The translations under genes were made by a program, and so were the position numbers. Shown here piece after piece: positions 10,643 through 61,927 of a stretch of DNA of 64,000 bases (positions are counted from its first letter, which is position 1; each line of letters opens with the position of its first letter). Source of the DNA: an uncultured Gammaproteobacteria bacterium (GTDB lineage Bacteria > Pseudomonadota > Gammaproteobacteria > Thiohalobacterales > Thiohalobacteraceae); assembly GCA_963696465.1 (NCBI GenBank), contig CAVOKC010000005.1, forward strand, positions 37,562 through 101,561, given 5' to 3'. The notes beneath the pieces were generated by a model. That model did not search any database and was not told the origin of the DNA. It worked only from the letters and a program-made list of their open reading frames with translations.

Positions 10643-11995
10643 TTGAGCTTCGAGGTACTCATGGACACACTTGCACAGCTGACTCCACTCATAGATGCCG
10701 TTGTATCGCATATCCATGAAGGCGTTATTCTTACCGACAGTCGTGGCGCGATTCTGTATAACAATCAGGCCGCCTGCCGACTACTCGGACTCAGCACTCT
10801 CACGTCAGTACATGAAATCAAGCAGAATACCGGCGTCAATTTACCAAAGTCGATTCTGCGTGCAGCTATTGATGCTGGTGATAAAGATGCCGCAGCACGG
10901 CCGTCGATTGATGCACTGGATTTCGAACAGCGTGTTACCTGCGATGGCATAACTCGCTTTGTTCAATTCAAAACCAGAACACTCTTGCTACCTGGAAGCA
11001 CTAATAAAGTCAGATTAATCGTACTCTCGGATATCTCCGAAAGGCGCAAGCTGGAAGCCGTTTTTCACGACAATATGAACAGCGGGCTAATTACACAGGC
11101 ACCGCAAATGTACGAAATCACCGACACAATCGAACAGGTTGCGCCGACGCGAGCGCCCATTGTTCTGCAAGGCGAATCAGGAACCGGAAAAACGCTATTC
11201 GCGCGCATGATCCATAGCAAAAGTAGCTGCAGTAATGGTCCACTGGTCGAGGTTAACTGTGCGGCGATCCCTGAAACGCTCCTGGAGTCGGAATTATTCG
11301 GTCATGTGAAGGGGGCTTTCACCGGGGCGATCAGCGACCGGGCAGGCCGATTACAGGCTGCGAATGGTGGAACTCTTTTTCTCGACGAAATCAGCGAGAT
11401 TCCTTTGCACCTACAGCCAAAGCTTCTCAAAGCATTAGAGGAACAGTGTTTCCAAATGGTAGGGTCGGACAAGAATATTCAAGTGGATATTCGCATCATC
11501 GCCGCCACAAATCGGAATCTGCGCGATATGGTTGATGCTGGCGAATTTCGTGCAGATCTTTACTATCGCCTTGCCGTCATTCCCGTTTACGTGCCCGCAT
11601 TGCGAGAGCGACTCGGCGATATCCCCCTACTGATACGACACATCTTCGACCGATTGGTGAGCAGAGGCTATCCTGACAATGTACAGTTTTCCGAAGACGT
11701 CATGCGGTTACTGATGGACTATCCTTGGCCCGGAAATGTGCGAGAACTTGCCAATGCCATCGAGCACGGGTTAATCCTTGCTAAGAATGGCCGCATCACT
11801 CCGCTCTGCCTGCCCGCAGATGTACGAAACTACTCTAATTACCCACACGCCGACGAAGACCATTTGGAACAGCAACGGCACGAAATTGAGGATGCCCTGA
11901 TCAAAGCCCAAGGCAACCGCGCTGAAGCCGCACGTGCTTTGGGAATTGATCGCAGCACGCTCTGGCGCCGGATGCAGCGACTTGGGTTAGCATAA
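10643..11995 (+). CDS. sigma-54-dependent Fis-family transcriptional activator (PAS - AAA+ - HTH), copy 1
   Basis: 450-aa ORF with an N-terminal PAS-like ~130 aa. The AAA+ domain carries Walker A GESGTGKT, the GAFTGA sigma-54 contact loop and Walker B LFLDE. The C-terminal HTH is [24 protein letters not shown]. The ORF-track start is TTG 10643; ATG 10661 (MDTLAQL) aligns with the paralog start MDALAHL. Confidence 0.9.
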
Positions 11996-12104
11996 TTAAA
12001 TATAATCAGTTAGTTATAATATTTTTATGGCAAACAACTATTGATTAGTAATTTCTAATGTACTAAAATACTGTTCAACAGAATTGAGCAGGGTCACATA
12101 TATT

Positions 12105-12212
12105 ATGATGTTCTTCGACACATTAACTTTGCTAGGTTTTCTTTTCGCTGTCGCCGCCTTAGCCGCCATGTTCTGGGCGATAGGTAACTGCCAGCGTTCT
12201 GGTAGCTGCTAA
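12105..12212 (+). CDS. possible 35-aa hydrophobic peptide (speculative)
   Basis: ATG ATG ... TAA encodes MMFFDTLTLLGFLFAVAALAAMFWAIGNCQRSGSC, one TM-like helix with a Cys-containing tail. It sits in a conspicuously AT-rich spacer. The SD is weak (GAGCAGGG). A 10-bp-stem hairpin follows at 12213-12250. Confidence 0.2.
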   Translation: MMFFDTLTLLGFLFAVAALAAMFWAIGNCQRSGSC

Positions 12213-12272
12213 CCTAAAGTACATCCTAAAAGTACATAAAGTACTTTAGGGATTCGCCAAGCACTGCGGCCG

Positions 12273-12301
12273 TTGACCCAACCCGGGTGCAGCTCTAGAA
12301 T
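12273..12301 (+). promoter_or_regulatory. sigma-70-type promoter upstream of tRNA-Val
   Basis: TTGACC (12273-12278), a 17-bp spacer, then TAGAAT (12296-12301). The tRNA starts 62 nt downstream of the -10. Confidence 0.5.
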
Positions 12302-12363
12302 GCCGTCTCCCGACAGTGGCTATATCCGGCCGCGGGGTCTGCAGTAGTATCAGAAGCAAATAT

Positions 12364-12438
12364 GGGCGCGTAGCTCAGCGGGAGAGCACTCCCTTCACAC
12401 GGGAGGGGTCACAGGTTCAATCCCTGTCGCGCCCACCA
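12364..12438 (+). tRNA. tRNA-Val (anticodon CAC)
   Basis: Manual cloverleaf: acceptor GGGCGCG/CGCGCCC, D-arm GCTC-AGCGGGA-GAGC, anticodon arm CTCCC-TTCACAC-GGGAG (CAC at positions 34-36), variable loop GGGTC, T-arm ACAGG-TTCAATC-CCTGT, discriminator A and an encoded CCA. Confidence 0.9.
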
Positions 12439-12839
12439 TATTTGCCAACCATTTCAAAAATTTCTGCGTGATATGGTATGGCCCGGGGTGGCCCGTACTG
12501 ATACCACCGCCCTCATCTATCTGAATAATTATCTAGTGTCTGCACCAGCCAGGCACACACATCCGGCGTACTGCAACCCACCGTGCGGTATAGTGCGCAC
12601 CAGTTCCGAGATGCGTGGCGAAGATAAAGAGGCCAAGCACCTGGGCCCCGGATCGCTGGACGGCTCGCGAACGGCAAGCACAACGGATACGAAAAGCCCA
12701 GCGCCCATTGGCGCGCGCGCTGTTTCGGCAAGACATCGCCTGCCACTAAATCCACACCGTAGACTATAACTAGCGCATGACAAGAATCTTGACTATGATC
12801 CATTCAATCGAATGATAAAAATCATATCCTGGATATGCG

Positions 12840-14189
12840 GTGGAGGGGTCGCTGATGGATGCGTTAGCACATCTGACATTACTAATGGGCCTTGTTGTCT
12901 CACGCATACGGGACGGCGTAGTGCTCACAGACAATCTTGGTTCCGTCCTATACATCAATCTTGCTGCCTGCTGTCTCTTGGGAATTCCACGTCCCACTGA
13001 TGCACAACCGCTCGCAATCAATCCCAACGTGCAGCTACCTGGCGCATTGCTGAATGCAACTCGAACTTGCTGCGCCAAGCATTCCGCGCAACTGACGGAT
13101 AACCAGCCCCGATATTTCGTCAAGCAACGCATCGAAAACAACGGCGTTACCCGCTTGGTCAACATAGAGATGACCACCGTAACCTTGCCGGACAGCCCCA
13201 CGCCGATGCATCTCATGCTTGTTTCTGATGCAGATGTCAGGCATCGGCCTGCATTAGAGACTCCGCAGACTGTTGCCAGTGATCTGTTCACTGAAACCCC
13301 GCGCATGCTTGAGATCCGTGAGACGCTTGAGCAGATCGCACCGACGATGGCTTCCGTTCTGTTGCAGGGTGAATCTGGCACGGGCAAGACCTTGCTGGCA
13401 CGCATGATCCATGAGCGCAGTGCCCGGGGAAATGCGCCACTGATTGAAGTCAACTGCGCTGCCATTCCAGATAATCTCCTGGAATCTGAACTCTTCGGGC
13501 ATGTGAAGGGCGCCTTCACCGGCGCCGTCAGCGATCGCCCCGGCCGACTGCAGGCGGCTGACGGTGGCACCTTGTTTCTCGACGAGGTGAGCGAGATCCC
13601 GTTGCAACTACAACCGAAACTGCTGAAGGCGTTGGAAGAAAAATGTTTTCAGATGGTGGGTTCGGATAAAAACACCCGCGTCAATGTGCGCATCATCGCT
13701 GCCAGTAACCGTAACCTGCGTGATTTGGTCGATGCCGGTGCTTTCCGTGCCGATCTGTATTATCGGCTCGCCGTGTTCTCACTCACTGTCCCGGCTCTGC
13801 GGGAACGCCCGGACGACATCCCGGCACTGATTCAGCACCTGCACCGGCGCTTCGTCGAACGCGGTTATCCGGGGCTAAAATATTCCGCCGATGCCATGGC
13901 GATGCTGCTTAACTATCCTTGGCCGGGTAACGTTCGCGAGCTGGCCAATGCCGTGGAGCACGCCATGATCCTGGCGAAGGACGGACTGATATCATCAAAA
14001 TGCCTGCCGGGAGATATCCATGATTATCATCTGCGCAAAAACGCATTCTCGCAGCCTGAACAAAAGCCGCGCTGGGAAATCTCGGAAGCTTTAGAGGCCG
14101 CTAATGGCAATCGCGCGGAGGCTGCGCGCATGCTGGGCATCGACCGCACGACATTGTGGCGGCGTATGCACCGCCTGGGATTGTCGTAG
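12840..14189 (+). CDS. sigma-54-dependent Fis-family transcriptional activator (PAS - AAA+ - HTH), copy 2
   Basis: 449-aa ORF collinear with copy 1 ([43 protein letters not shown]). By eye about three quarters of central-domain residues are identical. The likely start is ATG 12855 (MDALAHL). Confidence 0.9.
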
Positions 14190-15436: not shown

Positions 15437-15466
15437 AAAAAAAGAAGGGCGGCGGAGCCGCCCTTC
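15437..15466 (-). terminator. Rho-independent terminator of the cytochrome gene
   Basis: The minus strand reads GAAGGGCGGC-tcc-GCCGCCCTTC followed by TTTTTTT, 22 nt after the TAA at 15488-15490. Confidence 0.8.
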
Positions 15467-15487
15467 GTCAGTTGGTATGACTTGGCC

Positions 15488-17284
15488 TTATTTCTGCTTG
15501 TGGCAGAACCCGCAACCCACCGGTGTACCCTCGGCGATAGTGGCAGTCCCGTCGGCGCAGTCGGTGTTGTAGGGGGCGATGCCCTGCGTGTTCTTGCAGG
15601 TCACTACACGGACGGCGGAGGTCTTCGACAGCACGCTGCCGGTCAGCTTGCCGGTCGCCGTGTTCATGTGGCAGATCTTGCAGTCCGCGAATTGACCAGC
15701 GGTGGAGTTCTTGTGGTTGAGGTTCCACCGGTGGTCGTTGACCGGATGCATACCGTGAGGCCCACCCAAACCGAGCGGCATCGTGAGCTCCCCATTCGCG
15801 CCCCGGGTGTGGCAGGCGTCGCATTCCTGAATCTTGCCGTCGTGGCCCTGAATCTGCTGGGCGGTCCGGTTGTCGTTGGCCCGCGGATTCCCCATTGGCC
15901 ATTCCGCGTGGGTGGCGCCGTGGCAACCCTCGCACATTACACCGCCGTGGCCGGTGCTCACCCGGTAGAGCTGCGGGTTACCCGCGCCCGGGTTTGCGAA
16001 CCCATTGAACGAGACAGGGACCGAAGGCTCCGCGAAGCGCTTGTTGGTCGGCACGATAGGCGTCGCCTTGGGGTCGTTGGTGCGGAAAGCCACTCGCAAG
16101 CGGACGTTGTCGCTCACGCCCGCAGTATCCTTCGTGTTCTTCACCACGTTCGCGGTGTTCGCCAAATTGCTCACGGCGTCGCCGCTGTGGCAAGAACCAC
16201 AACCCGGCTCGTTGGCCCACGGCACCCGCGGGGTGGCGGGATTGGTGTAGAAGTCGTTAGCCAGGATGAATGCGCCCGGGTTGGTTGGAGAAACATTCTT
16301 GGTGAAGTCGTCACCCACGTGCTTCATGTTCCCGTGGCAATCGTTGCAGAGCATTTCTCCGGTACGCATGGCCCCGCGCAAGCACTTGGTGGTCTTGCCC
16401 GGGTGACATTGATAACAGGTTGCATCGAGCGCTGCCACACGGGCGGCCTGGTTGGTGACCATGCCGTTCGCGTCCTGGGTCGGCAGCGGCATGTCGGGGA
16501 AGAGCAAGCTGTTTGCATTATATCCCGTATCGCCTGGTGAGCGCCCGTTCGTGTCGAGGTTGCCATGGTGCCAGTGCATCACGCGGGAGTTGCTTTGGTG
16601 TGCGACCTGGTTGCGGCCGTTGGCGATGGTGCCCACAGGACCGGCCAGTGGTCCTAATTGCGCCAAGTCCAGGGCCGGGGTGTAGTGACAGACCTGGCAG
16701 ACCACCGGCTTTTCCTGAACCAGCGCCTTGTTAATGAGACAGTTGGTGTTGCCGTTCGGGCTGGACGAGCTGATCACGCACGCAGTCGACTGACCTGTGG
16801 GGCCGACATACTTCGACCCGTGCCTCAGGTCATGCAGACGCAGGACATTGATGTCAGTCGCGTACTCGATGCTGACGTTCTCAGGTACGTCGACTGAAGC
16901 CGGGTCCGCCAACTGGTTTACCACCGGCAGGCCAGCGCTTGTCAGGCCAGCCGTTGCCACGCCCTTGGTCGGGCTGTCCGGGACATCCAATGCCGCGGCG
17001 TGACAGTTTTTACAGCTCGCCTCGCCGGAAATGGGGAGCACAGTGTCCAACGTCGCCAGAAGGGTGCCGCCGGTCTTCGTTTTCGCCTGCACCCGCACCA
17101 GCGGGTAGGCGTTCTCGCGACCTTTGTTGTCCCAGGCCGCATAGGGCACACCGGCCGCCTCGAACCATTTGAGATTCTGTGCCACGTAGCCAAATGGGAA
17201 GTTCACGAAGAACGGCTTGACCTCGTAATACTCGTTGGCAGATTGGGGCACGTTGGCATTGTAGGGGCTGGTTATACCAGGCAT
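15488..17284 (-). CDS. multihaem c-type cytochrome, nine CXXCH (intact C-terminal two thirds of a larger gene)
   Basis: The 598-aa ORF contains CKNCH, CQVCH, CYQCH, CNDCH, CGSCH, CEGCH, CDACH, CKICH and CGFCH. It has no signal peptide of its own. Its coding sequence continues upstream in shifted frames (see next feature). Confidence 0.85.
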   Translation of the reverse strand: MPGITSPYNANVPQSANEYYEVKPFFVNFPFGYVAQNLKWFEAAGVPYAAWDNKGRENAYPLVRVQAKTKTGGTLLATLDTVLPISGEASCKNCHAAALDVPDSPTKGVATAGLTSAGLPVVNQLADPASVDVPENVSIEYATDINVLRLHDLRHGSKYVGPTGQSTACVISSSSPNGNTNCLINKALVQEKPVVCQVCHYTPALDLAQLGPLAGPVGTIANGRNQVAHQSNSRVMHWHHGNLDTNGRSPGDTGYNANSLLFPDMPLPTQDANGMVTNQAARVAALDATCYQCHPGKTTKCLRGAMRTGEMLCNDCHGNMKHVGDDFTKNVSPTNPGAFILANDFYTNPATPRVPWANEPGCGSCHSGDAVSNLANTANVVKNTKDTAGVSDNVRLRVAFRTNDPKATPIVPTNKRFAEPSVPVSFNGFANPGAGNPQLYRVSTGHGGVMCEGCHGATHAEWPMGNPRANDNRTAQQIQGHDGKIQECDACHTRGANGELTMPLGLGGPHGMHPVNDHRWNLNHKNSTAGQFADCKICHMNTATGKLTGSVLSKTSAVRVVTCKNTQGIAPYNTDCADGTATIAEGTPVGCGFCHKQK

Positions 17285-18302
17285 GTTGTGCTGGACCGCC
17301 GATAAAACTCGTCGCCACTGTTCACTAGCCCATCCGGACCGATGAAAAGATCCTTGACGTTGGGTACCGGCAGACTCTCGTCAGCCGTGACCGTGAACGG
17401 CGGACCGCAAGTGGAGTAAGTGACTGCGCCGGATTGAAGGGGTCGTAAGCCGGGTAGAACGGATCATAGGCACCCTTCGGGACGATGTTCCAGAAATTGG
17501 TCTTGTAGATGTCAACCACCGTGCTGTTGTTTTTGACTACCCCGGTGAACGGATCGGGATTCGTCTGACTCAGGATCGGGTCCTCGGGGTTCGACGCGGC
17601 CGAGTACAGGAGTCCACCGAATTCGAATTGAGTATCGACGGGTTGGCCCCCTTTTGGATAACCTGAGCCAGGAGCACCTGGAATGGCGGCAAGATACTCG
17701 AGATGCGGGTGTCGTAGTCGCCGCAGTGCATCCCCAAGTCGTTGATGGCAACGAGTTGGTAGCCGATCATGCCGGTGCCCGGTGCCGGGTTGAGTGAGTT
17801 CGCTGGCCGCGGCGCGGCTTGCTCGGGCACGGAGGACAGTTGCCAGGCAAAATTCCGGGGGCGAAGACACCGGAGAAGGTCTGGCTCGTCGAGTTTATTG
17901 ACGTGCCGGTTGATATCGCATTCACCGTAACGTTAACGGTTGCCGTGCAGGTCTTGGGACTACGCGAGTGTTGTCGGTCACCTTGAAGCTCGTGGTGTAA
18001 CTGCCGGCCGCGCTGTAGGTCACGGGCACCGGGGCGGAGGTTCCGCTGGTAGTTGCCCGATTGCGTGTTTGACGTCGGGCTGCCGCCGGGGAAAGTAAAG
18101 TCAAAGCGATACGGCTTCACCCCACCGGCAGCGGTGCCGGTATAGGTGATCTGCCGCCGACTGAGATCGTTGTCGCATTGGCGCTGATACTACAGGTGAG
18201 CGGCGGGGCCGGTGCGGCGGCCCATACCGATGACAGGGGAAACAACAATAACCCCAAGACGACTGTCAGCCCGGGCTGCAAGCGATACGTTGTGGTATTC
18301 AT
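17285..18302 (-). pseudogene. N-terminal part of the same cytochrome: signal peptide + PKD-like domain + conserved linker, broken by at least 6 frame changes
   Basis: ATG 18302 with a GGGGGGAG SD encodes MNTTTYRLQPGLTVVLGLLLFPLSSVWA (a signal peptide). Fragments in alternating frames follow: PLTCSISANATTISVGG, VKPYRFDFTFPGGSPTSNTQSGNYQ, VTYSAAGSYTTSFKVTDNT (PKD signature), TCTATVNVTVNA, YQLVAINDLGMHCGDYDTRISSILPPFQVLLAQVIQKG, PVDTQFEFGGLLYSAASNPEDPIL...AYDPFYPAYDPFNPA and VTYSTCGPPFTVTADESLPVPNVKDLFIGPDG. Confidence 0.6.
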
Positions 18303-18923
18303 AAAACTCCCCCCGCCGCCTCCAGGGCGGCGATCCGTCCACACTCCCGACGCCGATCCTGTCTCCGCGTACGACTCCAATGCGGAAACGCCGTTGTGCC
18401 GATCTCTTTGGCTGAAGGATACCTCCACCGGAGGCGAAGGATTTCCTAATCAATCTCTTTTTTGACCGCTCATAATTGAACAACCCTGAAATTCTGCTCT
18501 TGATCAAATCGAACCAGGGTTAGCGAAAAGTACTCTCTTGTGTATAGCAGGGGATTTTATTTTTACATTAGTATAAATGTGGTCTTCCCTGCGGGTGGGC
18601 GAGCGTCTTCATGAGTGTCTGCCCCCACGAAGTGCTGCGGGCATCACCACGTAGGCAATCGTTTCTTCGACGCTGCCGCCATAGACGCCGGAGCTACTAT
18701 GGGACATTCGACGTCACCAGCGGTGCAAGTACCACGCGGTTGGCGATCGACCGCTCAGCTGTTTGTGTAGAAGGTATAAAATGGCGTGCCGCAACGTCTA
18801 CTGGTAACCCATTAAATGCACCCTGCTTGACCACCGTCAAGCACGCGAGCATCTGGGCTTGATGCCCTGGTTCATGGATGACGATACTTAGAACGTGGCG
18901 GTGGATGACCAGAGGTAACCCGC

Positions 18924-19767
18924 ATGAATATTCGCCATCTGTTCCGCGTAGGCACGTTGCTCGGCATGCTTGCATTGTCACCGGCCAAAGCCGATGTACT
19001 GGTGCTCGTGCATGGCTGGTCGGCTAATGCCGATACTTGGCTGCACAGCGGCGTGCTGGCAAACCTGGCGACGCGCGGCTGGGTCGATGCTGGCGTGGTC
19101 GTAGCGGGACCACAGGGCACGAGGTATCTTCCCACCAACGGCAGCAATACACAGCGCAAAGTCTATCGTGCGCAGCTGACAGCAGAGGCGCCGTTGCTGC
19201 TTCAGGCAAGGCAGTTGCAAGCGGAACTGCAGATGATTCGTCAGCGCCACCCGAATGAGCGCATCACGCTGGCAGGTCACTCCGCAGGGGGTATCGTGGC
19301 GAGACTGACGCTGGTTCACCCGCAAACACCGCCGATGCAGGTACTGATTACACTGGGCAGCCCGAATCTGGGCACGATACGCGCCATCCAGGGGTTGGAC
19401 ATTGTCGAGAAGCAAACCGTTTTTCTGCCCGGGACCGGGAATCGATCTTCTCAAGCATGTGGCCGGTGGCGATGATTATCGCTATCTGCGTGCCTCACGC
19501 GGCGCGCTCTACGATCTGCAACCCGTGTCCTATGGCAGCCTCATCGATTGGCTCAACCATCAGCCGCATCCCGACATCACCTACTATTCTGTGATCCGTG
19601 GCGGTCCAGTCGGTGATGGCGACGAGCTGGTACCCGCTCTCAGCCAGGATCTGAATCAGGTGCCCGTGCTGCGCGGGCGCGTGCACGTACTGGTCGCACC
19701 GACCAGTCATCGGTTGGAACCGCGCGACGGGATATTGCTCGCGGATATTCTGGAGAGAACTAACTGA
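18924..19767 (+). pseudogene. secreted alpha/beta-hydrolase (lipase/esterase-like), one frame break
   Basis: Signal peptide MNIRHLFRVGTLLGMLALSPAKA, then VLVHGW and the nucleophile elbow GHSAGG. The frame changes near 19410-19415 (caaacc). The second frame continues PFFCPGPGIDLLKHVAGGDDY...GDGDELVP...H to a stop at 19767. Confidence 0.65.
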
Positions 19768-22454: not shown

Positions 22455-23679
22455 CTAGGCTGCGCGGCGACGGAGTATCACGAGCCCGATGATGGCGACG
22501 GTGGCAAAGCCGGCACCGGCCAAGAACGTGGCCGAGGGCCCGATGGCGCTCCATAGCGCACCTGCAATCATACTCGCCAGCAGCAGGGCGCCGCCACTGA
22601 CAAGATTGAAGATACCAAACCCGGTGCCGCGCAACGGGGCCGGCACCGTATCCGCGACGAGTTTCGATAAAAGTCCCTGGGTAAAAGCCATGTGCAATCC
22701 CCACAGCGCCGCACCGGCAAACACGGCCAGTGCGTCCGCGGCGACGGCCAACACCACATCGGCGGCGATGAGCAATGCGAGCCCGATCAACAGCAAGGTG
22801 CGTTCGCGGAAGCGGTCGGCCGCGGCGCCGGCCGGATAGGCAGCCGCGGCGTAGAATACGTTCATCACGACCATGACCACCGGCACGTAGCCGAGCTCGA
22901 GACCGACGTCATCGGCGCGCAGCACCAAAAATGCCTCGCTGAAGCGGGCCAGTGTAAAGACGGCGCCTAACACCACGACCTTCCAGTAACGCAGCGGCAG
23001 GCGCTTGATGTCGACGAAGGTGAGCGGCGCTTTGACGTGCCCGGGCACTTGCGCATGCTCCGGCTCGCGCACATAGATCATGAGCAACGCCACGGCAATA
23101 AACGCCGGCACCACGGCTACCCACATCACCGCTCTGATGTCGTTGACGAACCAGATCATGAAGGCCACCGCCAGCAGCGGACCGAGCAAGGCGCCCACGG
23201 AATCGAGCGCTTGGCGCAGCCCGTACGCGGCACCGCGCAAGGGCGCTGGCGTGATGTCGGCCACCAAGGCGTCGCGTGGTGCGCCACGGATGCCTTTGCC
23301 GATGCGATCGACGAAACGTGCCGTGAATACCCAGCCTATCGACGTGGCCAGCGGGAAAATCGGTTTGGTGAAAGCTGCAAGTGCCATAACCGAGGATCAT
23401 CAGGAATTTGCGCTTACCGAGATAATCGCTCAGCGTGCCCGAAAACACCTTCAAGATGGCTGCCGTCGCCTCCGCGATACCTTCGATGACGCCGACAGTC
23501 ACCATCGACACGCCCAGCGTCGTGACCATGAAAATCGGCAGGAGGCTGTGGATCATCTCGGAAGAAATGTCCATGAACAGCGAGCCGAATCCCAAGGCCC
23601 AGATGCCGGCCGGCAACGCGCGCCATGCGGCCGGGCTCCGCGGGCGAGACGGTGAACTGTTCGAAGCTCGTAAGCTCAC
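22455..23679 (-). pseudogene. MFS transporter (one frame break near 23385)
   Basis: The N-terminal half lies in ORF 22909..23850 (WALGFGSLFMDISSEMIHSLLPIFMVTTLGVSMVTVGVIEGIAEATAAILKVFSGTLSDYLGKRK). The C-terminal half is ORF 22455..23387 (FTARFVDRIGKGIRGAPRDALVADITP...). The start is uncertain: GTG 23679, or ATG 23850 giving a 57-aa charged extension. Confidence 0.65.
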
Positions 23680-24238
23680 GCCAGCGACCCAGCGTCGTGC
23701 GAAGCGTGCCAGTTGACTGCGTGCGGTGGTCTCCGCGCTCTGGGCCTGTTGCATGTGTGCCTGTGACTGCCGCAGCTGCGCCTCAAGAACAAAATCGTCC
23801 TCGTCCACGAGGATGTCGGCGATCCGATCAGCGATCTTGGTCGGCGACACCGATCCAGCTTTTGTTCCGATCTCCGATCATGGTTCTTATTCCTTCTGAC
23901 TGATCTGCGTCCGATCAACTGACGTTATTGATTTTTTGCAGACGCCGCGCAGTGCGTCAACACAACGTCCGAGCTGTACTGGCAACTGTTGCCATTACAA
24001 CTGTCACCATTCAAGTATGGCAGAGCCAGGCGAATCCAAACTGACCAGCCGCGACCGACTCAGGCTGACTCACCCGCCAAGGCGACACGGATCAGTTCAC
24101 GGCACACCTCGGCCCGCGGCTTATCCGAGCAGAGATTGTCGGTCGGAGGGACAGGCTTGGCTGACATAGGTAAGAAGTCTCCGGATCGATGCGGAAGAGC
24201 CCCTCCAGGCATATGAAGCACGATAAAAAGCCAACATT

Positions 24239-25580: not shown

Positions 25581-28500
25581 ATGGCCCACTTCTTCATCGA
25601 CCGCCCCATCTTCGCCTGGGTCATCGCCATCGTCATCATGCTCGCCGGCGGCTTGTCGATCTGTCGCTGCCGGTCGCGCAATACCCGTCCATCGCGCCGC
25701 CGACCATCGCCATCAACGCCAACTATCCGGGCGCGTCGGCAAAGACCGTGCAGGATTCCGTCACCCAGATCATCGAACAGAAGATGACCGGCCTCGACGA
25801 CCTGCTTACATGAGTCGTCGAGCGACTCTTACGGCCGCGCCACGGTGACGCTGACCTTCGACGCCGGCACCGATCCCGACATCGCGCAGGTGCAGACGCA
25901 GAACAAATTGCAGCTGGCTTTGCCGCTGCTGCCCATCGCCGTGCAACAGCAAGGCGTGCAGGTGGCCAAGTCGGCGCGCAATTCCTGCATGGTGGTCGGC
26001 TTCGTCTCCAAGGACGGCACGCACAGCCGCACCGACCTCGCCGACTTCCTCGTCTCCACGGTGCAGGAACCGCTGGCGCGCGTCACCGGCGTCGGCGAGA
26101 TTCAGGTGTTCGGTTCGCAGTACGCCATGCGCATCTGGGTCGATCCGGCCAAGCTGGACAACTACCGGCTCACGCCGATCGACGTGCAAAACGCGCTGCG
26201 CGATCAGAACGCCCAGGTGTCGGCCGGCCAGCTCGGCGGCACGCCCGCCATGCCGGGACAGGGCTTCACCGCGTCCATCACCGTGCAGAACCGCCTCGAG
26301 ACCGCCGAGCAGTTCGAACAGATCCTGCTGCGCAGTTCCACGCAGGGCGGCGAAGTGCGCCTGAAAGATATCGCGCGCATCGAGATCGGCGCCGAGAGCT
26401 ACGGCAACATCGGCCGCTTCAACGGCCAGCCCGCCGCGGGCATCGGCATCAAGCTCGCCGCCGGCGCCAATGCGCTGGATACAGCGGATGCGGTGCAAGC
26501 GCCAAGATCGACAGCCTGGAATCGTATTTCCCTTCCGGCGTCGAAGCGGTGATTCCCTACGACACCACGCCCTTCGTCAAGCTCTCCATCCTGAGCGTGG
26601 TGGAAACGCTGGTCGAGGCGGTCATCCTGGTATTCCTGGTGATGTATCTATTCCTGCAGAATTTCCGCGCGACGATGATCCCGACCATCGCCGTGCCCGT
26701 GGTGCTGCTCGGCACCTTCGGCGTGATGGCGGCATTCGGCTTCTCCATCAACACGCTGACCATGTTCGGCCTGGTGCTCGCCATCGGTCTGCTGGTCGAT
26801 GATGCCATCGTCGTGGTCGAGAATGTCGAGCGCGTCATGAGCGAAGAAGGTCTGTCGCCGAAGGAGGCGACCAGAAATCCATGACGCAGATCACCGGCGC
26901 CCTGGTCGGCATCGGCCTGGTGCTGTCGGCGGTGTTCGTGCCGATGGCCTTCTTCGGCGGCTCCACCGGCGTCATCTACCGGCAGTTCTCGATCACCATC
27001 GTCTCGGCGATGGCGCTGTCGGTGCTGGTGGCGATCATCTTCACGCCGGCCTTGTGCGCCACCATGCTGAAGCCGGTCGAGAAGGGCCACGGCACGGCGA
27101 GGCAGCGATTCGCGGCTTCTTCGGCTGGTTCAACCGCATGTTCGAACGCAGCAGCGAATCGTTACGAATCCGCCGTGGGCAAGATCCTCAATCGCAGCCT
27201 GCGCTTCCTGGCGATCTATGCCGCGATCGTCGGCGTGCTCGGCTGCTGTTTCTGCGCATGCCCACTGCCTTCCTGCCGGAGGAAGACCAGGGCCTGATGT
27301 ACACACAGGTCGTGCTGCCGTCCGGCGCCACCCAGGAACGCACCGTCGAGGTACTGAAGAAGGTCGAGCATCAGTTTCTGGAAAAGGAGAAGGACAACGT
27401 GCGTTCGATCTTCACCATCGCCGGCTTCAGCTTCGGCGGCCAGGGCCAGAACATGGGTCTCGGTTTCGTCAGCATGAAGGACTGGAGCGAACGTCCGGAA
27501 CCGGAACAGGAGATCCACGCCGTCGCGACGCGCGCGATGGGCGCGTTCCAGCAGATCCGCGAAGCGATGGTGTTCGCCTTCGTGCCGCCGGCGGTGATCG
27601 AACTCGGCACGTCGAGCGGCTTCAACGTGCAGCTACAGGATCGCGCCGGCCTGGGCCACGACGCGCTGATCGCGGCGCGCAACCAGTTCCTCGGCCTCGC
27701 GGCGAAGGACCCGCGTCTGGTCGGCGTGCGCCCCAACGGTCAGGACGATGTCGCCGAATACCAATTGGATATCGATTACGCCAAGGCCGGCGCGCTCGGC
27801 GTCTCGGTGGCGGACATCAACAACACGCTGGCGACTGCCTGGGGCGGCACTTACGTCAACGACTTCATCGACCGCGGCCGCATCAAGAAGGTCTATCTGC
27901 AGGCCGAGGCCGAGCGCGCATGAAGCCGGAAGATCTCACGAAATGGTATGTGCGCAACGAACGCGGCGAGATGGTGCCATTGTCGGCGTTCACCACCGCG
28001 CGCTGGACCTACGGCTCGCCGCGCCTGGAACGCTACAACGGCCAGCCCTCGATCGAGATCGCTGGGCCAGGCCGCGCCCGGCTAGCTCGGGCGATGCGAT
28101 GACGGCCGATCGAGGAGATCATGGTGCAATTGCCACCCGGCATCGGCTATGAATGGACCGGCACTTCGTATGAGGAACGCCGCTCCGGCACCCAGGCGCC
28201 GGGCTTGTATGCATTGTCGCTGCTGGTGGTGTTCCTGTGTCTGGCGGCGTTGTACGAAAGCTGGTCGGTGCCGTTCGCGGTCATGCTGGTGGTGCCGCTC
28301 GGGGTGCTCGGCGCGGTGCTCGCCGCGAGCGGCCGCGGCCTGTCGAACGATGTGTATTTCCAGGTCGGCCTGCTCGCCACCATCGGCCTGTCGTCGAAGA
28401 ACGCGATCCTGATCGTGGAGTTCGCCAAGGTGCTCATGGAGAAGGAAGGCAAGGATCTGATCACGGCGACGCTGGAGGCGGTGCGCATGCGGCTGCGTCC

Positions 28501-28729
28501 GATTCTGATGACCTCGCTCGCCTTTGGTTTCGGCGTATTGCCCATGGCGCTCGCCACCGGCGCCGGCTCCGGCAGCCAGAACGCCATCGGCACCGGCGTG
28601 CTCGGCGGCACCATCGCCGGCACCGTGCTCGGCATCTTCTTCATCCCGCTGTTCTACGTGGTGATCAAGCGTATCTTCAAGGCCAAGCCGCTTGCGGATG
28701 CCGCGCCTGCCGCCACGAAGCCGCCCTAG
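25581..28729 (+). pseudogene. RND multidrug efflux permease (AcrB/MexB family), at least 8 frame breaks as assembled
   Basis: Collinear AcrB-like fragments occur in alternating frames: [24 protein letters not shown]; [44 protein letters not shown]; [21 protein letters not shown]...; [56 protein letters not shown]; [38 protein letters not shown]; [24 protein letters not shown]...; and a C-terminal ORF ending [13 protein letters not shown]. No outer-membrane factor gene follows. Confidence 0.85.
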
Positions 28730-28986: not shown

Positions 28987-30272
<1,286 letters not shown>

Positions 30273-31076: not shown

Positions 31077-31222
31077 GCGATCCTGTAGCGGTTGTTGTTC
31101 ATTGGGCGGCAATGGTACATCAAACTGCCCCGGGACTGATTTGAAACCCGTCCCCGTGGGACTCGCAACCCGGGAACGCACCGCCTATCCCGGCTGTATC
31201 GGCGCCACTTCCCAAGCTTAAC

Positions 31223-31293
31223 GTAGCCCGGATGAAGTGAAACGGAATCCGGGTTCGCCGGCCCCGGATTTCGCTGCGCTGCATCCGGGCTAC
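31223..31293. repeat. REP-like palindromic element (GTAGCCCGGATG...CATCCGGGCTAC)
   Basis: GTAGCCCGGATGAAGTGAAACGGAATCCGGG...CCCGGATTTCGCTGCGCTGCATCCGGGCTAC. This is a classic GC-rich extragenic palindrome type. Confidence 0.7.
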
Positions 31294-31312
31294 AGGCTGG
31301 GGAATCGGGGCG

Positions 31313-32633
31313 TTATTTCTTCCCCGCCTTGCGATCCAGTTCGCGCAGATGCGCGAGCTTCTCGGCGATCTTGATCTCCAGGCCGCGCGGCACTGGTGGT
31401 AATAATGTCGCTCTGGCATTTCATCCGGAAAATACTGTTCACCGGCCGCATAAGCTTCCGGCTCATCGTGGGCGTAACGGTAGCGCTCGCCGTAACCCAG
31501 TTCCTTCATCAGCTTGGTCGGCGCGTTGCGCAGATGCAGCGGCACGTCCAACGAGCCGAATTCGGCCGCATCGCGGCGCGCCTGATTGAGGCCATATACA
31601 CGGCGTTGCTCTTGGGCGCACAGGCGAGATAGACGATGGCCTGCGCGAGGGCGAGCTCGCCTTCGGGGCTGCCGAGACGTTCCTGCACATCCCAGGCATT
31701 CACGACCAGTTGCCAGCGCGCGCGGGTCGGCATTGCCGATGTCCTCGCTGGCCATGCGCACAATGCGTCGCGCAATATACAGCGGATCACAGCCGCCATC
31801 GAGCATGCGCGTCAACCAGTACAAGGCCGCGTCCGGGATCGAACCGCGCACGGATTTGTGCAGTGCGGAGATCTGATCGTAGAACGCCTCGCCGCCTTTA
31901 TCGAAACGGCGCAGACCGCCGACGATGACCTCGTTGATGACGGATTCAGTGATGACTTCGCGCCCGTCATCGTTTCTCGGCCAGATCAGCGGCGATTTCC
32001 AGGAGATTGAGTAGCCGGCGCGCGTCGCCGTCGGCGGCCTGGCGAGCAGACGTGCCGCAGCTCCTCGGCCAGTTGCGATGCCGCGCGCCCAGTCCGCGTT
32101 CTGCGTCTGTCAGCGCGCGATCGATGAAGCCGAGCAGGTCGGCGTCTTCGAGCGCCTTCAGCACATAGGTACGGCGCGCGACAACAAGGCGTTGTTCAAT
32201 TCAAACGAAGGATTCTCGGTCGTCGCGCCGACGAAAATCAGCGTGCCGTCCTCGACGTGCGGCAGAAACGCATCCTGCTGCGATTTGTTGAAGCGATGCA
32301 CCTCGTCGACGAACAGCATGGTCTGGCGGCCATAGGCTTACGCTGCGTGCGCGCCTTATCGACCGCCGCGCGAATATCCTTGACCCCGGCGAGCACGGCC
32401 GACAGCGTCGCGAATTCCGCCCCGGCGGTGTGCGCCAGCAAGCGCGCGAGCGTGGTCTTGCCGGTGCCCGGCGGTCCCCACAACACCATCGAATGCAGAC
32501 GGCTGTTCTCGATGGCGAGCCGCAAGGGTTTGCCGGGGCCCAGCAGGTGCTGCTGGCCGACGAACTCATCGAGATTCTGCGGTCGCAGGCGGTCAGCGAG
32601 GGGGCGGTACGGATCGGTGACGGATGTGGGCAT
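31313..32633 (-). pseudogene. rarA: replication-associated recombination protein A (AAA+ ATPase), at least 4 frame breaks
   Basis: The N-terminus is MPTSVTDPYRPLADRLRPQNLDEFVGQQHLLGPGKPLRLAIENSRLHSMVLWGPPGTGKTTLARLLA. Later fragments are [69 protein letters not shown] and YRYAHDEPEAYAAGEQYFPDEMPERHYY. The terminal LEIKIAEKLAHLRELDRKAGKK ends at a TAA at 31313-31315. Confidence 0.85.
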
Positions 32634-33648: not shown

Positions 33649-35961
33649 TTAATCTTTCGGCGGCGGCGGTGCCATTACTTCGCGGCTGCCGTTGGATTGC
33701 AGCGGGCCGACGATGCCGGCCATTTCCATGGTCTCGATCATGCGCGCGGCGCGGTTGTAGCCGATCTTCAGACGCCGCTGCACGCCGGAGATCGATGCGC
33801 GTCGCGACTCGGTGACAATGCGCACGGCCTGGTCGTAAAGCGCATCGGATTCGCTGTCCGCGCCGCCCCCGCCCATCTCGGTGAAGCTATCGCCGCTCGG
33901 ATGAATCGCCCTGCAGAATCTCATCGAGGTAATCCGGCTCGGAATTGCCCTTCAGATGATCCACGACGCGATGCACTTCCTGATCCGACGACAAAGGCAC
34001 CATGGATACGCATCGGCACGCCGGTGCCCGGTGCGAGATACAACATATCACCATGACCGAGCAGCGCCTCCGCGCCCATCTGATCGAGGATCGTCCGCGA
34101 ATCGATTTTGCTCGACACCTGAAAAGCGATGCGCGTGGGAATATTCGCCTTGATCAGTCCGGTGATGACGTCCACCGACGGGCGTTGCGTGGCGAGAATC
34201 AGGTGAATACCCGAGGCACGCGCCTTTTGCGCCAGCCGTGCGATCAACTCTTCGACCTTCTTGCCGACCACCATCATCATGTCGGCCAGCTCGTCGATGA
34301 TGACCACGATATACGGCATATGCGTCAACGGCGGCGCCGGCTGTGGGGTCGAGTGTCTTCCGGCTTGTACAGAATGGATCGAGTAATCGGCTCGCCGGCT
34401 TCTGCTGCGCATCCTTGATCTTGCGGTTATGCTGGCGAGTTGCGCACGCCCAGCGCGGCCATAAGTTTGTAACGCCGTTCCATTTCGGCGACACACCAGC
34501 GCAAGCGCGTTGGCGGCCTCTTTCATATCGGTGACCACCGGCGTGAGCAGATGCGGAATGCCTTCGTAAATCGACAGTTCGAGCATTTTCGGGTCGATCA
34601 TGATCAGCCGCACATCTGCCGGCAGCGCCTTGTACAGCAGACTCAGGATCATGGCATTCACGGCCACGGATTTACCCGAGCCGGTGGTGCCCGCGACCAG
34701 CAGATGCGGCATGCGTCCCAGATCCACGACGGTCGGTTGGCCCGGAAATATCCTTACCCAGCGCCAGCGTCAGCGGTGAACCGGCCTCTTCATAATCCTG
34801 CGAGGTGATGATTTCCGAAAGCGAAACAATCTCGCGTTTCTCATTGGGGATTTCCAGGCCGACAAACGATTTGCCCGGGATCACATCGACCACACGCACG
34901 CTGATCGCCGACAAGGCGCGGGCAAGATCTTTGGCGAGATTGCTGATCTGACTGACCTTCACGCCCGAGCCCGGCTGCAATTCGAAGCGCGTGATCACCG
35001 GGCCAGGACTGACGGCGACGACTTCAACCTCGACACCAAAGTCGGCGAGCTTCAATTCCACTAGACGCGACATCGCCTCCAGCGCGGAGTCGGAATAACC
35101 GCCACAGTGGGACGCGCCGGATCGAGCAACGACAGCGGCGGCAGTTCGGAATGTGATGGCGCCATCGAACAGGCGCACTTGGCGCTCCTTCTCGATGCGC
35201 TCGCTGGGCTCGACCTTTTTGATGACCGGTTCGATACGTGGCGGCGGCCGATTCTCGACCTTCTTCTGCTCCTCGCGCACGACTTCCTGACGTTGCATGC
35301 GCATTTGCCGGCTGGCGAGGTAATCCTGCAACTCGTCGATACGGTCGCGCGCCCAATTGACAAAGCGCAGCGTCCAACGCCCGGTGCGGTCGATGACCAC
35401 CAGCCACGACATGCCCGTGAACAGCGTCATGCCCGCGAGGAACAGCGCCAACAGAAACAAGGTCCCGCCGACGTCGCTGAACGGATGCATCAAGTCGTTG
35501 CCGATCAGATCACCGAGAATGCCACCGGCGGATAGGGGCAATACGCCGTAGCCGAGTTTGAGATGCAGACTGGCCAGTCCGCAGCCGGCGCCCAGCGTCA
35601 GCAGAAAACCCAGCCAGCGTAGCGCCAGGGTGTTGTAGTCGATATCACCATCTTGCGTGCGACCGCGGAAAATCAGCCAGCCGCTGTATCCGACCATGAT
35701 CGGAAACAACACGGCGAGGAAACCGAACAGATACAGGAACACATCGGCGAACCAGGCACCCGCCACCCCGCCGATGTTCTGCACGGTGCCACGCGGCCCA
35801 GTATGTGACCAACCGGGATCAGTGCCGTGATAACTCAGTAGCGATACCAGTAGGTACACTGCAATCGCGCTCAGGATAATCAGCGCGCCTTCACGCACGC
35901 CACGACTGACATGGTGCCGCAACGGCGCGGCGTTGAGGTTTTTCTTGCGTGCTTGTGCCAA
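33649..35961 (-). pseudogene. ftsK: DNA translocase FtsK, at least 6 frame breaks
   Basis: N-terminal TM domain (ORF 34672..35961). The ELPPLSLLDP motif appears only in a side frame (35061..35363). Walker [19 protein letters not shown] is in ORF 33921..34727. [24 protein letters not shown] is in a side frame. The C-terminal gamma winged helix is [48 protein letters not shown] (33649..33924). Confidence 0.9.
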
Positions 35962-37660: not shown

Positions 37661-37671
37661 GCGGGCGACCG

Positions 37672-40956: not shown

Positions 40957-41082
40957 ATTTCGTATCGTGGAATCGATTGCGGATTGCGGAATCCTACGCC
41001 GGGCCGTACTGTGTTTGCAACTGAACACTGACCGGCCATACCCGCTTGGCCATGCCCGATTACAAAGACCAGGAGTCCGACC

Positions 41083-55236: not shown

Positions 55237-58151
<2,915 letters not shown>

Positions 58152-58154
58152 ATC

Positions 58155-61700: not shown

Positions 61701-61927
61701 GGGCCGGAAAAATACAAGACTCAACCCGTAATGTACAAGGATTGACAGACCCGCCTCGCTCTGCGCCAGCGCTTGCCCGGCATGCGCCCGATAAGCGCCC
61801 GTCAAATCACCGGACGCGAGATCGCAGCCGGCCCGGAGGAGGCGCCGCAAACGACTTGTTTTTGCTTGTATCCGAGCGGGTATCCCGCCTTGTATCAGGG
61901 GGTGCGCCTCCTGTATCTTTGCGCGCC

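What the first reader, a model, noticed from the sequence alone, without database searches (positions are those of the whole stretch)
15488..18302. ~940-aa exported PKD-domain + nine-haem c-type cytochrome, a candidate extracellular or periplasmic electron conduit, with its N-terminal third shredded by frame breaks
The gene has a signal peptide and strong SD at 18302, a PKD-like Ig domain and a conserved-looking module (YQLVAINDLGMHCGDYD...ILPPFQVLLAQVIQKG). An intact 598-aa region with nine CXXCH motifs follows, and the gene ends in a textbook terminator. Large PKD or Ig-decorated multihaem cytochromes are typical of extracellular electron transfer (iron or electrode oxidation or reduction), yet no porin or partner cytochrome gene is adjacent. 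Frame breaks are very unevenly distributed: at least 6 in the first 1 kb and none in the following 1.8 kb. A weak GG-N10-GC element (minus strand TGGACGGATCGCCGC, 18344-18330) lies just upstream of the SD.
Basis: partly seen in the sequence, partly recalled or inferred. Interest (0 to 1): 0.7.

Follow-up and report, generated by a model that had tools for sequence, protein, structure and literature searches.

The report
Secreted nine-haem cytochrome, c553O family
This is a gene for a large exported nine-haem cytochrome from a widespread but functionally unsolved family; a Methylococcus relative is found outside the cell, and the "shredded" front third is almost certainly sequencing or assembly error, not gene decay.

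Summary
A minus-strand gene at 18302..15488 has a signal peptide, one PKD-like Ig domain, a conserved beta-rich module, nine CXXCH motifs and a strong terminator. Seven 1-nt frame breaks all lie between 18151 and 17304.

The breaks are best read as assembly errors:
- serS, ftsK, ligA, smc and about eight other genes in the window are broken the same way.
- After frame correction, the broken part shows the same purifying selection as the intact part (dN/dS 0.145 vs 0.152).
- The corrected protein has no internal stops and keeps 173 of 175 family-invariant residues.

The protein is 84% identical to a 937-aa "cytochrome C" of Sulfuricaulis limicola. It belongs to a large, mainly gammaproteobacterial family found in 343 species genomes, always with nine haems. 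The Methylococcus capsulatus member is annotated "cytochrome c5530 family protein". At 101 kDa it matches MCA0338, which was detected on the cell surface and in culture supernatant.

The gene is normally standalone, with no porin or partner cytochrome, so the missing partner here is typical. The sigma-54 element is not supported.

The most likely function is a secreted or surface electron-transfer cytochrome, but the substrate is unknown. This is a new member of a known, uncharacterised kind.

The parts
15488..18302 (-). Whole cytochrome gene, about 937 codons once seven 1-nt indels are corrected. Orthologue of the S. limicola 'cytochrome C' (P0001).
   Evidence: 84% aa identity, 100% coverage; 87% nt identity.
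18307..18310 (-). Shine-Dalgarno core GGAG, 4 nt upstream of the ATG.
   Evidence: Conserved in S. limicola.
18219..18302 (-). Sec (signal peptidase I type) signal peptide, 28 aa, ending VWA|AAP. No lipobox.
   Evidence: Read from the translation. Homologues carry the same N-terminal organisation.
17925..18200 (-). PKD-like Ig beta-sandwich domain. Contains frame breaks at ~18151, 18051 and 17968.
   Evidence: Pfam PKD E=0.015. Profile hits to collagenase PKD domains. AF2 pLDDT ~90 for residues 34-124 of the orthologue. Ig-like Foldseek hits.
17030..17905 (-). Family-specific conserved non-haem module, beta-rich, with the SINSTSQ, NDLGMHCGDxDTR, ILPPFQ, KTNFW and PVPNV motifs. Contains frame breaks at ~17835, 17611, 17407 and 17304.
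   Evidence: Invariant columns in the 38- and 120-sequence alignments. Strands in the AF2 model. Motif coordinates.
15491..17014 (-). Nine-haem region, from CKNCH (17014-17000) to CGFCH (15514-15500).
   Evidence: All 120 closest homologues have exactly nine CXXCH. Nine further invariant His are available as distal ligands.
17304..18151 (-). Span that holds all seven frame-breaking 1-nt indels (six deletions, one insertion).
   Evidence: DNA alignment; tblastn frame changes.
15444..15466 (-). Intrinsic terminator: 10-bp stem with 8 G-C pairs, then T7.
18303..18541 (-). 5' leader and upstream region conserved with S. limicola, although the flanking genes differ.
   Evidence: 82% mean column identity.

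Best explanation
The locus encodes a functional, monocistronic gene for a Sec-exported nonahaem c-type cytochrome of about 937 aa. Its frame breaks are artefacts of an indel-prone assembly.

**Layout:** signal peptide, one PKD-like Ig domain, a linker, a conserved beta-rich module of about 290 aa (NDLGMHCGD motif), then a region of about 510 aa with nine CXXCH haems.

**Family:** it belongs to the family whose M. capsulatus member is annotated 'cytochrome c5530 (c553O) family protein' and matches MCA0338.

**Inferred mechanism:**
1. After export and haem attachment in the periplasm, the protein is released to the cell surface or medium, probably by type II secretion as predicted for MCA0338.
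2. There its chain of (probably all bis-His) haems passes electrons between the cell envelope and an external redox partner such as a mineral, a metal ion, a soluble shuttle or another cell.
3. The variable N-terminal Ig-type domain(s) probably act as a spacer or attachment module.

**Shown here:** gene structure, family membership, nine invariant haem motifs, standalone context, and the artefactual nature of the breaks.

**Taken from the literature on the orthologue or a listed family member:** extracellular location, and a link to current production.

**Inferred only:** direction of electron flow, the partner, and the secretion route in this organism.
For: **The frame breaks are artefacts**
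- Frameshifts in the same window split serS, phosphoketolase (three times) and an IclR regulator.
- They also split an MFS transporter and a second AcrB gene, ftsK, and ligA, smc and DUF1631.
- The frame-corrected broken part has dN/dS 0.145 against 0.152 for the intact part, with no in-frame stops.
- The corrected protein keeps 173 of 175 invariant family residues.

**Family**
- 1120 hits in the first search; the best is S. limicola at 84% identity and 100% coverage.
- 343 species genomes carry a relative.
- 515 clusters at 50% identity match with E<=1e-30.
- All 120 best hits have exactly nine CXXCH.
- The M. capsulatus homologue is AAU90385.1, 'cytochrome c5530 family protein', with a computed mass of 101.0 kDa.

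**Location and function, from the literature**
- MCA0338 (101 kDa, c5530 family, PKD) was detected with 59 unique peptides in culture supernatant at all growth phases. It had earlier been found in the surface fraction and is a predicted T2SS substrate (PMC4257694).
- MCA0338 is listed among the c553o family members (PMC517821).
- Deleting MCA0421 lowers anodic current (PMC6281684).
- 23 of 38 family members match the Pfam MtrC/MtrF domain II/IV model over haems 6-9 at E<=0.01. Four of eight checked, including the M. capsulatus protein, reach the 30-bit cut-off.

**Haem ligation**
- Nine invariant His lie outside the motifs, enough for bis-His ligation of all nine haems.
Against: - No experiment exists for this organism or for any sulfur oxidiser.
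- The extracellular location is transferred from an orthologue that is only about 51% identical to the S. limicola protein.
- The window protein itself gives no PF22113 hit.
- The fold search found no similarity to MtrC or any solved cytochrome (best MtrC hit E~0.9).
- The family is unusually conserved for a mere electron conduit: 175 invariant columns in 120 sequences, many of them in the non-haem module. That pattern fits an enzyme or a very specific partner better.
- The break density in the N-terminal third (7 in 0.85 kb) is several-fold higher than in the other broken genes (about 1-2 per kb). This local excess is not explained without reads.
- One family-invariant residue is substituted in the intact part (D392N, S. 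limicola numbering).
Confidence: 0.55

Rival explanations
1. It is an extracellular or periplasmic multihaem enzyme rather than a passive conduit. The conserved non-haem N-terminal module (NDLGMHCGDxDTR, with invariant Met-His-Cys) would form a substrate or active site next to one haem. The other haems would feed or drain electrons, for example for a sulfur, nitrogen or metal (Cu or Fe) substrate.
For: - Conservation is very high across distant hosts: 50-60% identity, and 175 invariant columns with many Asp, Asn, Arg, Tyr and Lys in the non-haem module.
- The gene is standalone with its own leader and terminator. That is typical of self-contained enzymes.
- There is an invariant Cys192 next to His191.
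- Per the authors cited in PMC4831470 and PMC6281684, surface c553O-family proteins in M. capsulatus respond to copper.
Against: - Exactly nine invariant non-motif His exist, one potential distal ligand per haem, so no haem is obviously open.
- There is no sequence or fold similarity to NrfA, HAO, OTR, MccA or any solved enzyme.
- The partial Pfam similarity is to MtrC/MtrF electron-transfer domains.
Confidence: 0.25
2. It is a real pseudogene. The N-terminal third has truly accumulated seven frameshifts, so no exported protein is made. At most, a 598-aa fragment without a signal peptide could be translated in the cytoplasm, where it could not receive haem.
For: - The sequence as given is broken seven times.
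- The break density here is several-fold higher than in other broken genes of the window.
- One invariant residue is changed (D392N).
Against: - Essential single-copy genes (serS, ligA, ftsK, smc) in the same window are also frameshifted, which cannot be real in a viable cell.
- All seven events are 1-nt indels.
- There are no stops, no larger deletions and no rise in dN/dS after correction (0.145 vs 0.152).
- 173 of 175 invariant residues are kept.
- The leader, Shine-Dalgarno sequence and terminator are intact and conserved.
Confidence: 0.1
3. It is a periplasmic electron carrier or 'wire' that stays inside the outer membrane. It would link inner-membrane quinol or cytochrome complexes with periplasmic sulfur-oxidation enzymes.
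For: - It has a Sec signal peptide and no lipobox.
- No porin or dedicated secretion gene lies nearby.
- The hosts are mostly sulfur oxidisers with rich periplasmic redox chemistry.
Against: - The M. capsulatus orthologue is found outside the cell (PMC4257694).
- The variable N-terminal Ig, PKD, FN3, cadherin and Calx-beta decorations are typical of surface or secreted proteins.
- There is no conserved periplasmic partner gene.
Confidence: 0.1

Closest known systems
Methylococcus capsulatus Bath MCA0338 (AAU90385.1 / Q60BX5), 'cytochrome c5530 (c553O) family protein'
   Same: - It is a full-length homologue with the same layout: signal peptide, Ig/PKD domains, the NDLGMHC module and nine CXXCH.
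- It is about 51% identical to the S. limicola orthologue.
- It is also a standalone gene.
- It was found experimentally in culture supernatant and the surface fraction (PMC4257694).
   Different: - It has extra N-terminal Ig domains (969 aa; Big_6 plus PKD).
- The host is a methanotroph, not a sulfur oxidiser.
- Equating AAU90385.1 with locus tag MCA0338 is inferred from annotation, PKD content and mass (101.0 kDa). No accession table confirmed it.
Cytochrome c553O itself and MCA0421 of M. capsulatus (Bergmann et al. 1999; Karlsen et al. 2008; Tanaka et al. 2018)
   Same: - They are listed in one family with MCA0338 by the genome authors (PMC517821).
- They are high-molecular-mass, multi-c-haem, surface-associated proteins.
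- Deleting MCA0421 lowers anodic current (PMC6281684).
- From my own recollection of the Bergmann abstract: c553O is a homodimer of ~124-kDa subunits with about 8 low-spin haems each, and the neighbouring ORF1 has nine motifs.
   Different: - They sit in a copper-regulated cytochrome cluster that also encodes a beta-barrel protein (PMC4831470), whereas this gene is standalone.
- I could not obtain their sequences, so direct similarity to the window protein was not tested (one search failed, paper not held).
MtrC/OmcA/MtrF/UndA outer-membrane multihaem cytochromes of Shewanella (Pfam PF22113)
   Same: - They are secreted multihaem electron-transfer proteins that combine beta-rich and haem domains.
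- Haems 6-9 of many family members match PF22113 positions ~84-167 near the curated cut-off.
   Different: - This protein has nine haems, not ten or eleven.
- It has one beta module plus an Ig domain, instead of two split-barrel domains.
- It has a signal peptidase I signal, not a lipoprotein signal.
- There are no adjacent mtrAB-type genes.
- The window protein gives no PF22113 hit, and fold similarity is absent (6qyc E~0.9, TM ~0.1).
OcwA, the nonahaem surface cytochrome of Thermincola potens (PMC6703420)
   Same: It has nine haems, sits at the cell surface, and has been characterised as a cell-surface terminal reductase (title of PMC6703420).
   Different: - There is no detectable sequence or fold similarity.
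- OcwA comes from a Gram-positive host.
- From my own knowledge, OcwA is related to NrfA/OTR-type cytochromes. Any resemblance here is in haem number only.

Membership tests
Cytochrome c553O ('c5530') family of M. capsulatus | Large (about 90-125 kDa) exported c-type cytochrome with 8-9 CXXCH motifs. | tested here: met
   About 937 aa, signal peptide, nine CXXCH.
Cytochrome c553O ('c5530') family of M. capsulatus | Full-length homology to a protein annotated as a family member. | tested here: met
   The M. capsulatus homologue found with the family profile (L061; 51% identity over residues 72-934 of the S. limicola protein) is AAU90385.1, 'cytochrome c5530 family protein'. All invariant motifs are shared.
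Cytochrome c553O ('c5530') family of M. capsulatus | Direct sequence similarity to purified cytochrome c553O (occ, MCA0423) or to MCA0421. | not tested
Ten long representative hits were looked up and none came from Methylococcus. Bergmann 1999 is not held.
Cytochrome c553O ('c5530') family of M. capsulatus | Cell-surface or extracellular location. | not testable with these tools
   Known only for MCA0338, MCA0421 and MCA0423 in M. capsulatus (PMC4257694; PMC4831470).
MtrC/OmcA-type outer-membrane decahaem cytochromes | Match to Pfam PF22113 (MtrC/MtrF domains II/IV) at the curated cut-off. | tested here: not met
   The window protein has no hit at E<=1. S. limicola has none at E<=0.01. Some relatives reach 30-32 bits against a 30-bit cut-off.
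MtrC/OmcA-type outer-membrane decahaem cytochromes | Ten or eleven haems in two pentahaem domains alternating with two beta-barrel domains; lipoprotein signal. | tested here: not met
   Nine haems in all 120 relatives. One beta module ahead of all the haems. No lipobox.
MtrC/OmcA-type outer-membrane decahaem cytochromes | Encoded next to a porin and a periplasmic decahaem partner (mtrAB-like). | tested here: not met
   No other CXXCH ORF in 64 kb. Neighbours are regulators, efflux pumps and a hydrolase. No conserved partner across 86 loci.
MtrC/OmcA-type outer-membrane decahaem cytochromes | Fold similarity to solved MtrC, OmcA or MtrF. | tested here: not met
   Foldseek with the pLDDT 78 / pTM 0.86 model: best MtrC hit 6qyc at E~0.9, probability 0.02, TM ~0.1. 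The model lacks haems, so this is weak negative evidence.
PKD domain (PF00801 / PF18911) | Match to the Pfam model at the curated cut-off, or an Ig-like beta-sandwich fold. | tested here: inconclusive
   Pfam PKD 15.7 bits against a 23.5-bit cut-off. Family profile against PDB collagenase PKD domains gives E=0.0025. A confident beta-sandwich is modelled, with Ig-like structural hits. So it is clearly Ig-like, and PKD-like by weak sequence evidence.
Catalytic multihaem enzymes (NrfA, HAO, OTR, MccA, TvNiR) | Sequence or fold similarity to these enzymes; a haem with an open or unusual distal ligand. | tested here: not met
   No PDB sequence hit in the haem region. No fold hit at E<0.1. Nine invariant spare His exist for nine haems. 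The ligand assignments themselves could not be checked without model coordinates.
Sigma-54-dependent promoter | Conserved -24 GG and -12 GC (TGGCAC-N5-TTGCW) upstream of the gene. | tested here: not met
No upstream site has fewer than 3 mismatches, and window-wide matches are not above shuffles.

The most novel reading that the evidence does not exclude
This family is a structurally new class of secreted nonahaem cytochromes, with no detectable relative in the PDB. Sulfur-oxidising, symbiotic and methanotrophic Gammaproteobacteria would use it for porin-independent redox exchange with the outside, such as minerals, Cu or Fe ions, shuttles or host or partner cells. Alternatively it is an extracellular enzyme whose active site is built by the invariant NDLGMHCGD module.
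Probability: 0.3. Interest if true: 0.6.

Novelty: new member of a known kind. Interest (0 to 1): 0.3.

Why it matters
For this locus the practical message is a caution. The broken reading frame is an assembly problem, not biology, and the gene should be annotated as an intact nine-haem cytochrome.

The family itself deserves attention for four reasons:
- It occurs in at least 343 species genomes. These include purple sulfur bacteria, chemosynthetic symbionts (Solemya, Lamellibrachia, Ca. Thiodiazotropha), Halieaceae and Methylococcus.
- It is very strongly conserved.
- It has no solved or recognisably similar structure.
- Its only experimental data are localisation of one member outside the cell.

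If it mediates extracellular electron exchange in sulfur oxidisers, it would add a standalone, porin-independent component to known extracellular electron transfer systems.

Tried and rejected
- **First AlphaFold run** (38 sequences, 937 aa): pLDDT 52, and only the Ig domain was usable. Its Foldseek hits were generic Ig proteins. A second run with 120 sequences on a 789-aa member gave pLDDT 78 and pTM 0.86, but no PDB match at E<0.1.
- **NCBIfam:** no hits.
- **Sequence search against the PDB,** with a profile and with a single sequence: only PKD domains and one chance hit.
- **Synteny with S. limicola:** homology runs only from 15437 to 18541, and the flanks differ.
- **Same-species accurate genome:** none was found among the GTDB representatives. 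The best are S. limicola (86% nt) and a groundwater MAG (78% nt). The indels therefore could not be checked against an independent assembly.
- **Conserved partner genes:**
  - ORFs from 86 loci were clustered, and no universal partner emerged.
  - Sigma-54 activators near 11 loci share only the generic AAA+ and HTH part with the window's two activators.
  - Sigma-54-like promoter matches lie upstream of 8 of 83 loci, against 3 of 83 in the reverse-complement control.
- **Rfam and folding of the conserved leader:** nothing significant (z = -1.5).
- **Sequences of MCA0421 and MCA0423:** looked for among representative hits, without success.
- **Literature leads that turned out unrelated:**
  - The Ferrigenium nonahaem cytochrome is membrane-anchored with an Fe-S partner.
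  - MtoC is an inner-membrane cytochrome.
  - The Allochromatium vinosum pyrite study found no nine-haem cytochrome in that genome.
- **Codon-usage frame plot to count frameshifts window-wide:** too noisy. Homology-based checks were used instead.
Full report
**What is in the sequence**

On the minus strand, an ATG at 18302 is preceded by GGAG 4 nt upstream. It opens a typical Sec signal peptide, MNTTTYRLQPGLTVVLGLLLFPLSSVWA|AAP, with no lipobox. The reading frame then changes repeatedly until 17304. From 17284 to 15488 there is one intact 598-aa ORF with nine CXXCH motifs. It ends 22 nt before a strong intrinsic terminator at 15466-15444, which has a 10-bp stem with 8 G-C pairs followed by T7. 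No other ORF with haem motifs lies anywhere in the 64 kb.

The neighbours are:
- two paralogous sigma-54 activators on the other strand (10643-11995 and 12840-14189);
- two small genes without Pfam hits;
- a divergent alpha/beta hydrolase (18924-19767);
- a histidine-kinase fragment;
- an RND efflux pair.

The gene is therefore monocistronic.

**The frame breaks**

The closest relative found is a 937-aa "cytochrome C" of Sulfuricaulis limicola (P0001; 84% aa identity over the full length; 87% nt identity). Aligning the two genes gives seven net frame-breaking 1-nt indels in the window. Six are deletions and one is an insertion. They lie at about 18151, 18051, 17968, 17835, 17611, 17407 and 17304, with none in the remaining 1.8 kb. 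The frame changes in tblastn agree.

The breaks are not specific to this gene. Homology checks show the following genes split in the same window:

| Gene | Approximate position of breaks |
|---|---|
| serS | ~29385 |
| Phosphoketolase | ~41615, ~42770, ~43180 (three breaks) |
| IclR regulator | ~40740 |
| MFS transporter | ~23380 |
| Second AcrB gene | several pieces, 25.8-28.8 kb |
| rarA/mgsA | |
| ftsK | ~34700 |
| DUF1631 | ~54368 |
| ligA | ~56300 |
| smc | at least five pieces, 57.7-61.9 kb |

In contrast, 5.2-14.2 kb and several other long genes are clean. Essential single-copy genes cannot all be dead, so the assembly carries patchy indel errors.

The cytochrome gene itself points the same way:
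- After projecting the window onto the S. limicola codons, the broken part (codons 44-340) has dN/dS 0.145 and 89% aa identity. The intact part has dN/dS 0.152 and 87% identity.
- No in-frame stops appear.
- The corrected protein keeps 173 of 175 residues that are invariant in 120 homologues. One of the two exceptions is an X at an indel site. The other is D392N, in the intact part.

I conclude, at about 85-90% confidence, that the gene is intact in the organism. The local error density is unexplained: 7 per 0.85 kb, against roughly 1-2 per kb in the other broken genes. Low local coverage or strain heterogeneity in the variable N-terminal region would explain it, but that needs the reads.

**The family**

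The first search returned 1120 hits. A profile search of 1.84 billion cluster representatives gave 2677 hits at E<=1e-3 and 515 at E<=1e-30. A scan of one genome per GTDB species found 343 species with a relative. The 80 best hits are almost all Gammaproteobacteria:
- Chromatiaceae (Thiodictyon, Thiocystis, Thiohalocapsa);
- Thiohalomonadaceae, Sedimenticolaceae and Thiogranum;
- Ca. Thiodiazotropha, and the Solemya velum and Lamellibrachia symbionts;
- Halioglobus and other Halieaceae;
- Methylococcus capsulatus.

All 120 closest homologues have exactly nine CXXCH. The core from the NDLGMHC motif to the C-terminus is about 700-760 aa. The part ahead of it varies from about 60 to 500 aa and carries zero to several PKD, FN3, Big, cadherin-like or Calx-beta domains.

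Conservation is high. There are 175 invariant columns in 120 sequences. They include nine His outside the haem motifs (191, 490, 576, 579, 785, 798, 820, 849, 852 in S. limicola numbering) and four extra Cys (192, 508, 521, 640). Nine spare invariant His for nine haems suggests bis-His ligation throughout, including one His supplied by the non-haem module.

**Structure and remote homology**

Only generic multihaem Pfam models hit the window protein (Cytochrome_C7). NCBIfam gives nothing. Sequence searches of the PDB find only PKD domains. A 120-sequence AlphaFold model of a 789-aa member reached pLDDT 78 and pTM 0.86. It shows a beta-rich N-terminal module followed by a mostly helical and coil haem region. 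Foldseek against the PDB found nothing at E<0.1, and MtrC (6qyc) appears only at E~0.9.

There is one weak link to MtrC. In 23 of 38 family members, haems 6-9 match Pfam PF22113 (MtrC/MtrF domains II/IV) at E<=0.01. Four of the eight members checked individually reach the 30-bit cut-off, including the M. capsulatus protein at 31.6 bits. The window and S. limicola proteins do not match this model.

**Genomic context in relatives**

Five annotated contexts and a clustering of all ORFs in 86 loci show no universal partner. An OmpR-type two-component pair is adjacent in about 14-16 loci, and a sigma-54 activator in 11. Those activators resemble the window's two only in the generic AAA+ and HTH part. 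The absence of a porin or partner cytochrome is therefore the norm for this family.

In S. limicola the GG reads TGC, inside a leader that is otherwise 82% conserved over about 240 nt. Sigma-54 consensus matches in the window are not above shuffles.

Homology to S. limicola runs only from the leader to just past the terminator (15437-18541). Both flanks differ, so the gene with its leader and terminator sits in different neighbourhoods in the two genomes.

**Link to known biology**

The M. capsulatus homologue (969 aa, nine CXXCH) is AAU90385.1 / WP_010959699 / Q60BX5, named "cytochrome c5530 family protein". Its computed mass is 101.0 kDa. This matches MCA0338 as described in the secretome study of strain Bath. 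That study lists a c5530 family protein of 101 kDa with a PKD domain. It was a predicted type II secretion substrate and was identified with 59 unique peptides in culture supernatant at all growth phases. It had earlier been found in the surface-associated fraction (PMC4257694).

The genome paper lists MCA0338 with MCA0421, MCA0423, MCA0424, MCA2160 and MCA2259 as the cytochrome c553o family, and then called that family unique to M. capsulatus (PMC517821). The present data show that at least the MCA0338 branch is widespread. Surface c553O-family proteins respond to copper (PMC4831470). Deleting MCA0421 lowers anodic current (PMC6281684). I could not obtain the MCA0421 or MCA0423 sequences, so their similarity to the window protein rests on the published family assignment.

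**Mechanism**

The best-supported picture has three steps:
1. Sec export and periplasmic haem attachment.
2. Release to the surface or medium, with type II secretion inferred from the M. capsulatus prediction.
3. Electron transfer along nine closely packed, probably bis-His, haems to or from an external partner. The Ig-type N-terminal domain would act as spacer or anchor.

Direction and partner are unknown. In a Sulfuricaulis-like sulfur oxidiser, either electron uptake from reduced solids or disposal to oxidised ones is conceivable. The main rival is an enzyme whose site is built by the invariant NDLGMHCGD module. The unusually high conservation favours this idea. The ligand count and the lack of any similarity to catalytic multihaem enzymes count against it.

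**Verdict**

The striking features have ordinary explanations. The shredded N-terminus comes from an error-prone assembly, the missing partner is typical of the family, and the sigma-54 element is chance. The gene is a new member (84% identical to an already deposited protein) of a known but functionally uncharacterised family. Interest is modest for this locus (0.3). The family as a whole is a fair target for structural and genetic work.

Noticed in passing
window 22455-23850, 25845-28729, 28999-30269, 31120-32633, 33921-35961, 40212-40992, 41104-43297, 52797-55096, 55237-57352, 57710-61850: Many genes are split by frameshifts. These include the essential genes serS, ftsK, ligA and smc, plus phosphoketolase (three breaks), an IclR regulator, an MFS transporter, a second AcrB gene, rarA/mgsA and DUF1631. 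Other stretches are clean, for example 5.2-14.2 kb. The assembly has patchy 1-nt indel errors, so any pseudogene call in this window is unsafe.
   Followed up: partly
window 10643-14189: Two tandem paralogous PAS-type sigma-54 enhancer-binding proteins (58% identical, 450 and 449 aa) flank a tRNA-Val(CAC) at 12364-12438. No convincing sigma-54 promoter was found near the cytochrome gene, so their target is unknown.
   Followed up: partly
window 18303-18541 vs L001:9757-10000: The ~240-nt region upstream of the cytochrome gene is about 82% conserved with S. limicola, although the flanking genes differ entirely. Homology stops just past the terminator on the other side (15437). The gene, its leader and its terminator behave as a unit that sits in different neighbourhoods. 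The leader has no Rfam match, and its predicted fold is not significant (z = -1.5).
   Followed up: partly
window about 17128-17126 (codon for residue 392 in S. limicola numbering; WDNKGRE): Asp392, invariant in 120 homologues, is Asn in the window, inside the otherwise intact ORF. This could be a real lineage-specific change or a substitution error.
   Followed up: no
L004, L007, L010, L013, L019, L023, L030, L053, L057 and others; L024, L025, L027, L029, L030, L057: In a minority of family loci the cytochrome gene lies next to an OmpR-type response regulator plus sensor kinase (about 14-16 of 86 loci) or next to a sigma-54 activator (11 loci). The Thiodictyon loci L027 and L029 also have good TGGC-N..-TTGC matches 220-290 nt upstream. 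Regulation may be lineage-specific.
   Followed up: partly
window 49386-50822 (-) and 36182-39363 (-): There is another probable secreted or surface protein (Laminin_G_3, Big_9/cadherin-like and FN3 domains, 478 aa). Separately, a VWA-domain protein (563 aa) sits next to a 492-aa ORF with no Pfam match.
   Followed up: no
window 40212-43297 vs L004:509-3888: The IclR regulator and phosphoketolase (XFP) pair, followed by a sugar-binding SBD_N/NBD_C protein (43708-44769), has the same order as in a gammaproteobacterial MAG contig that also carries a cytochrome of this family a few kb away (L004).
   Followed up: no
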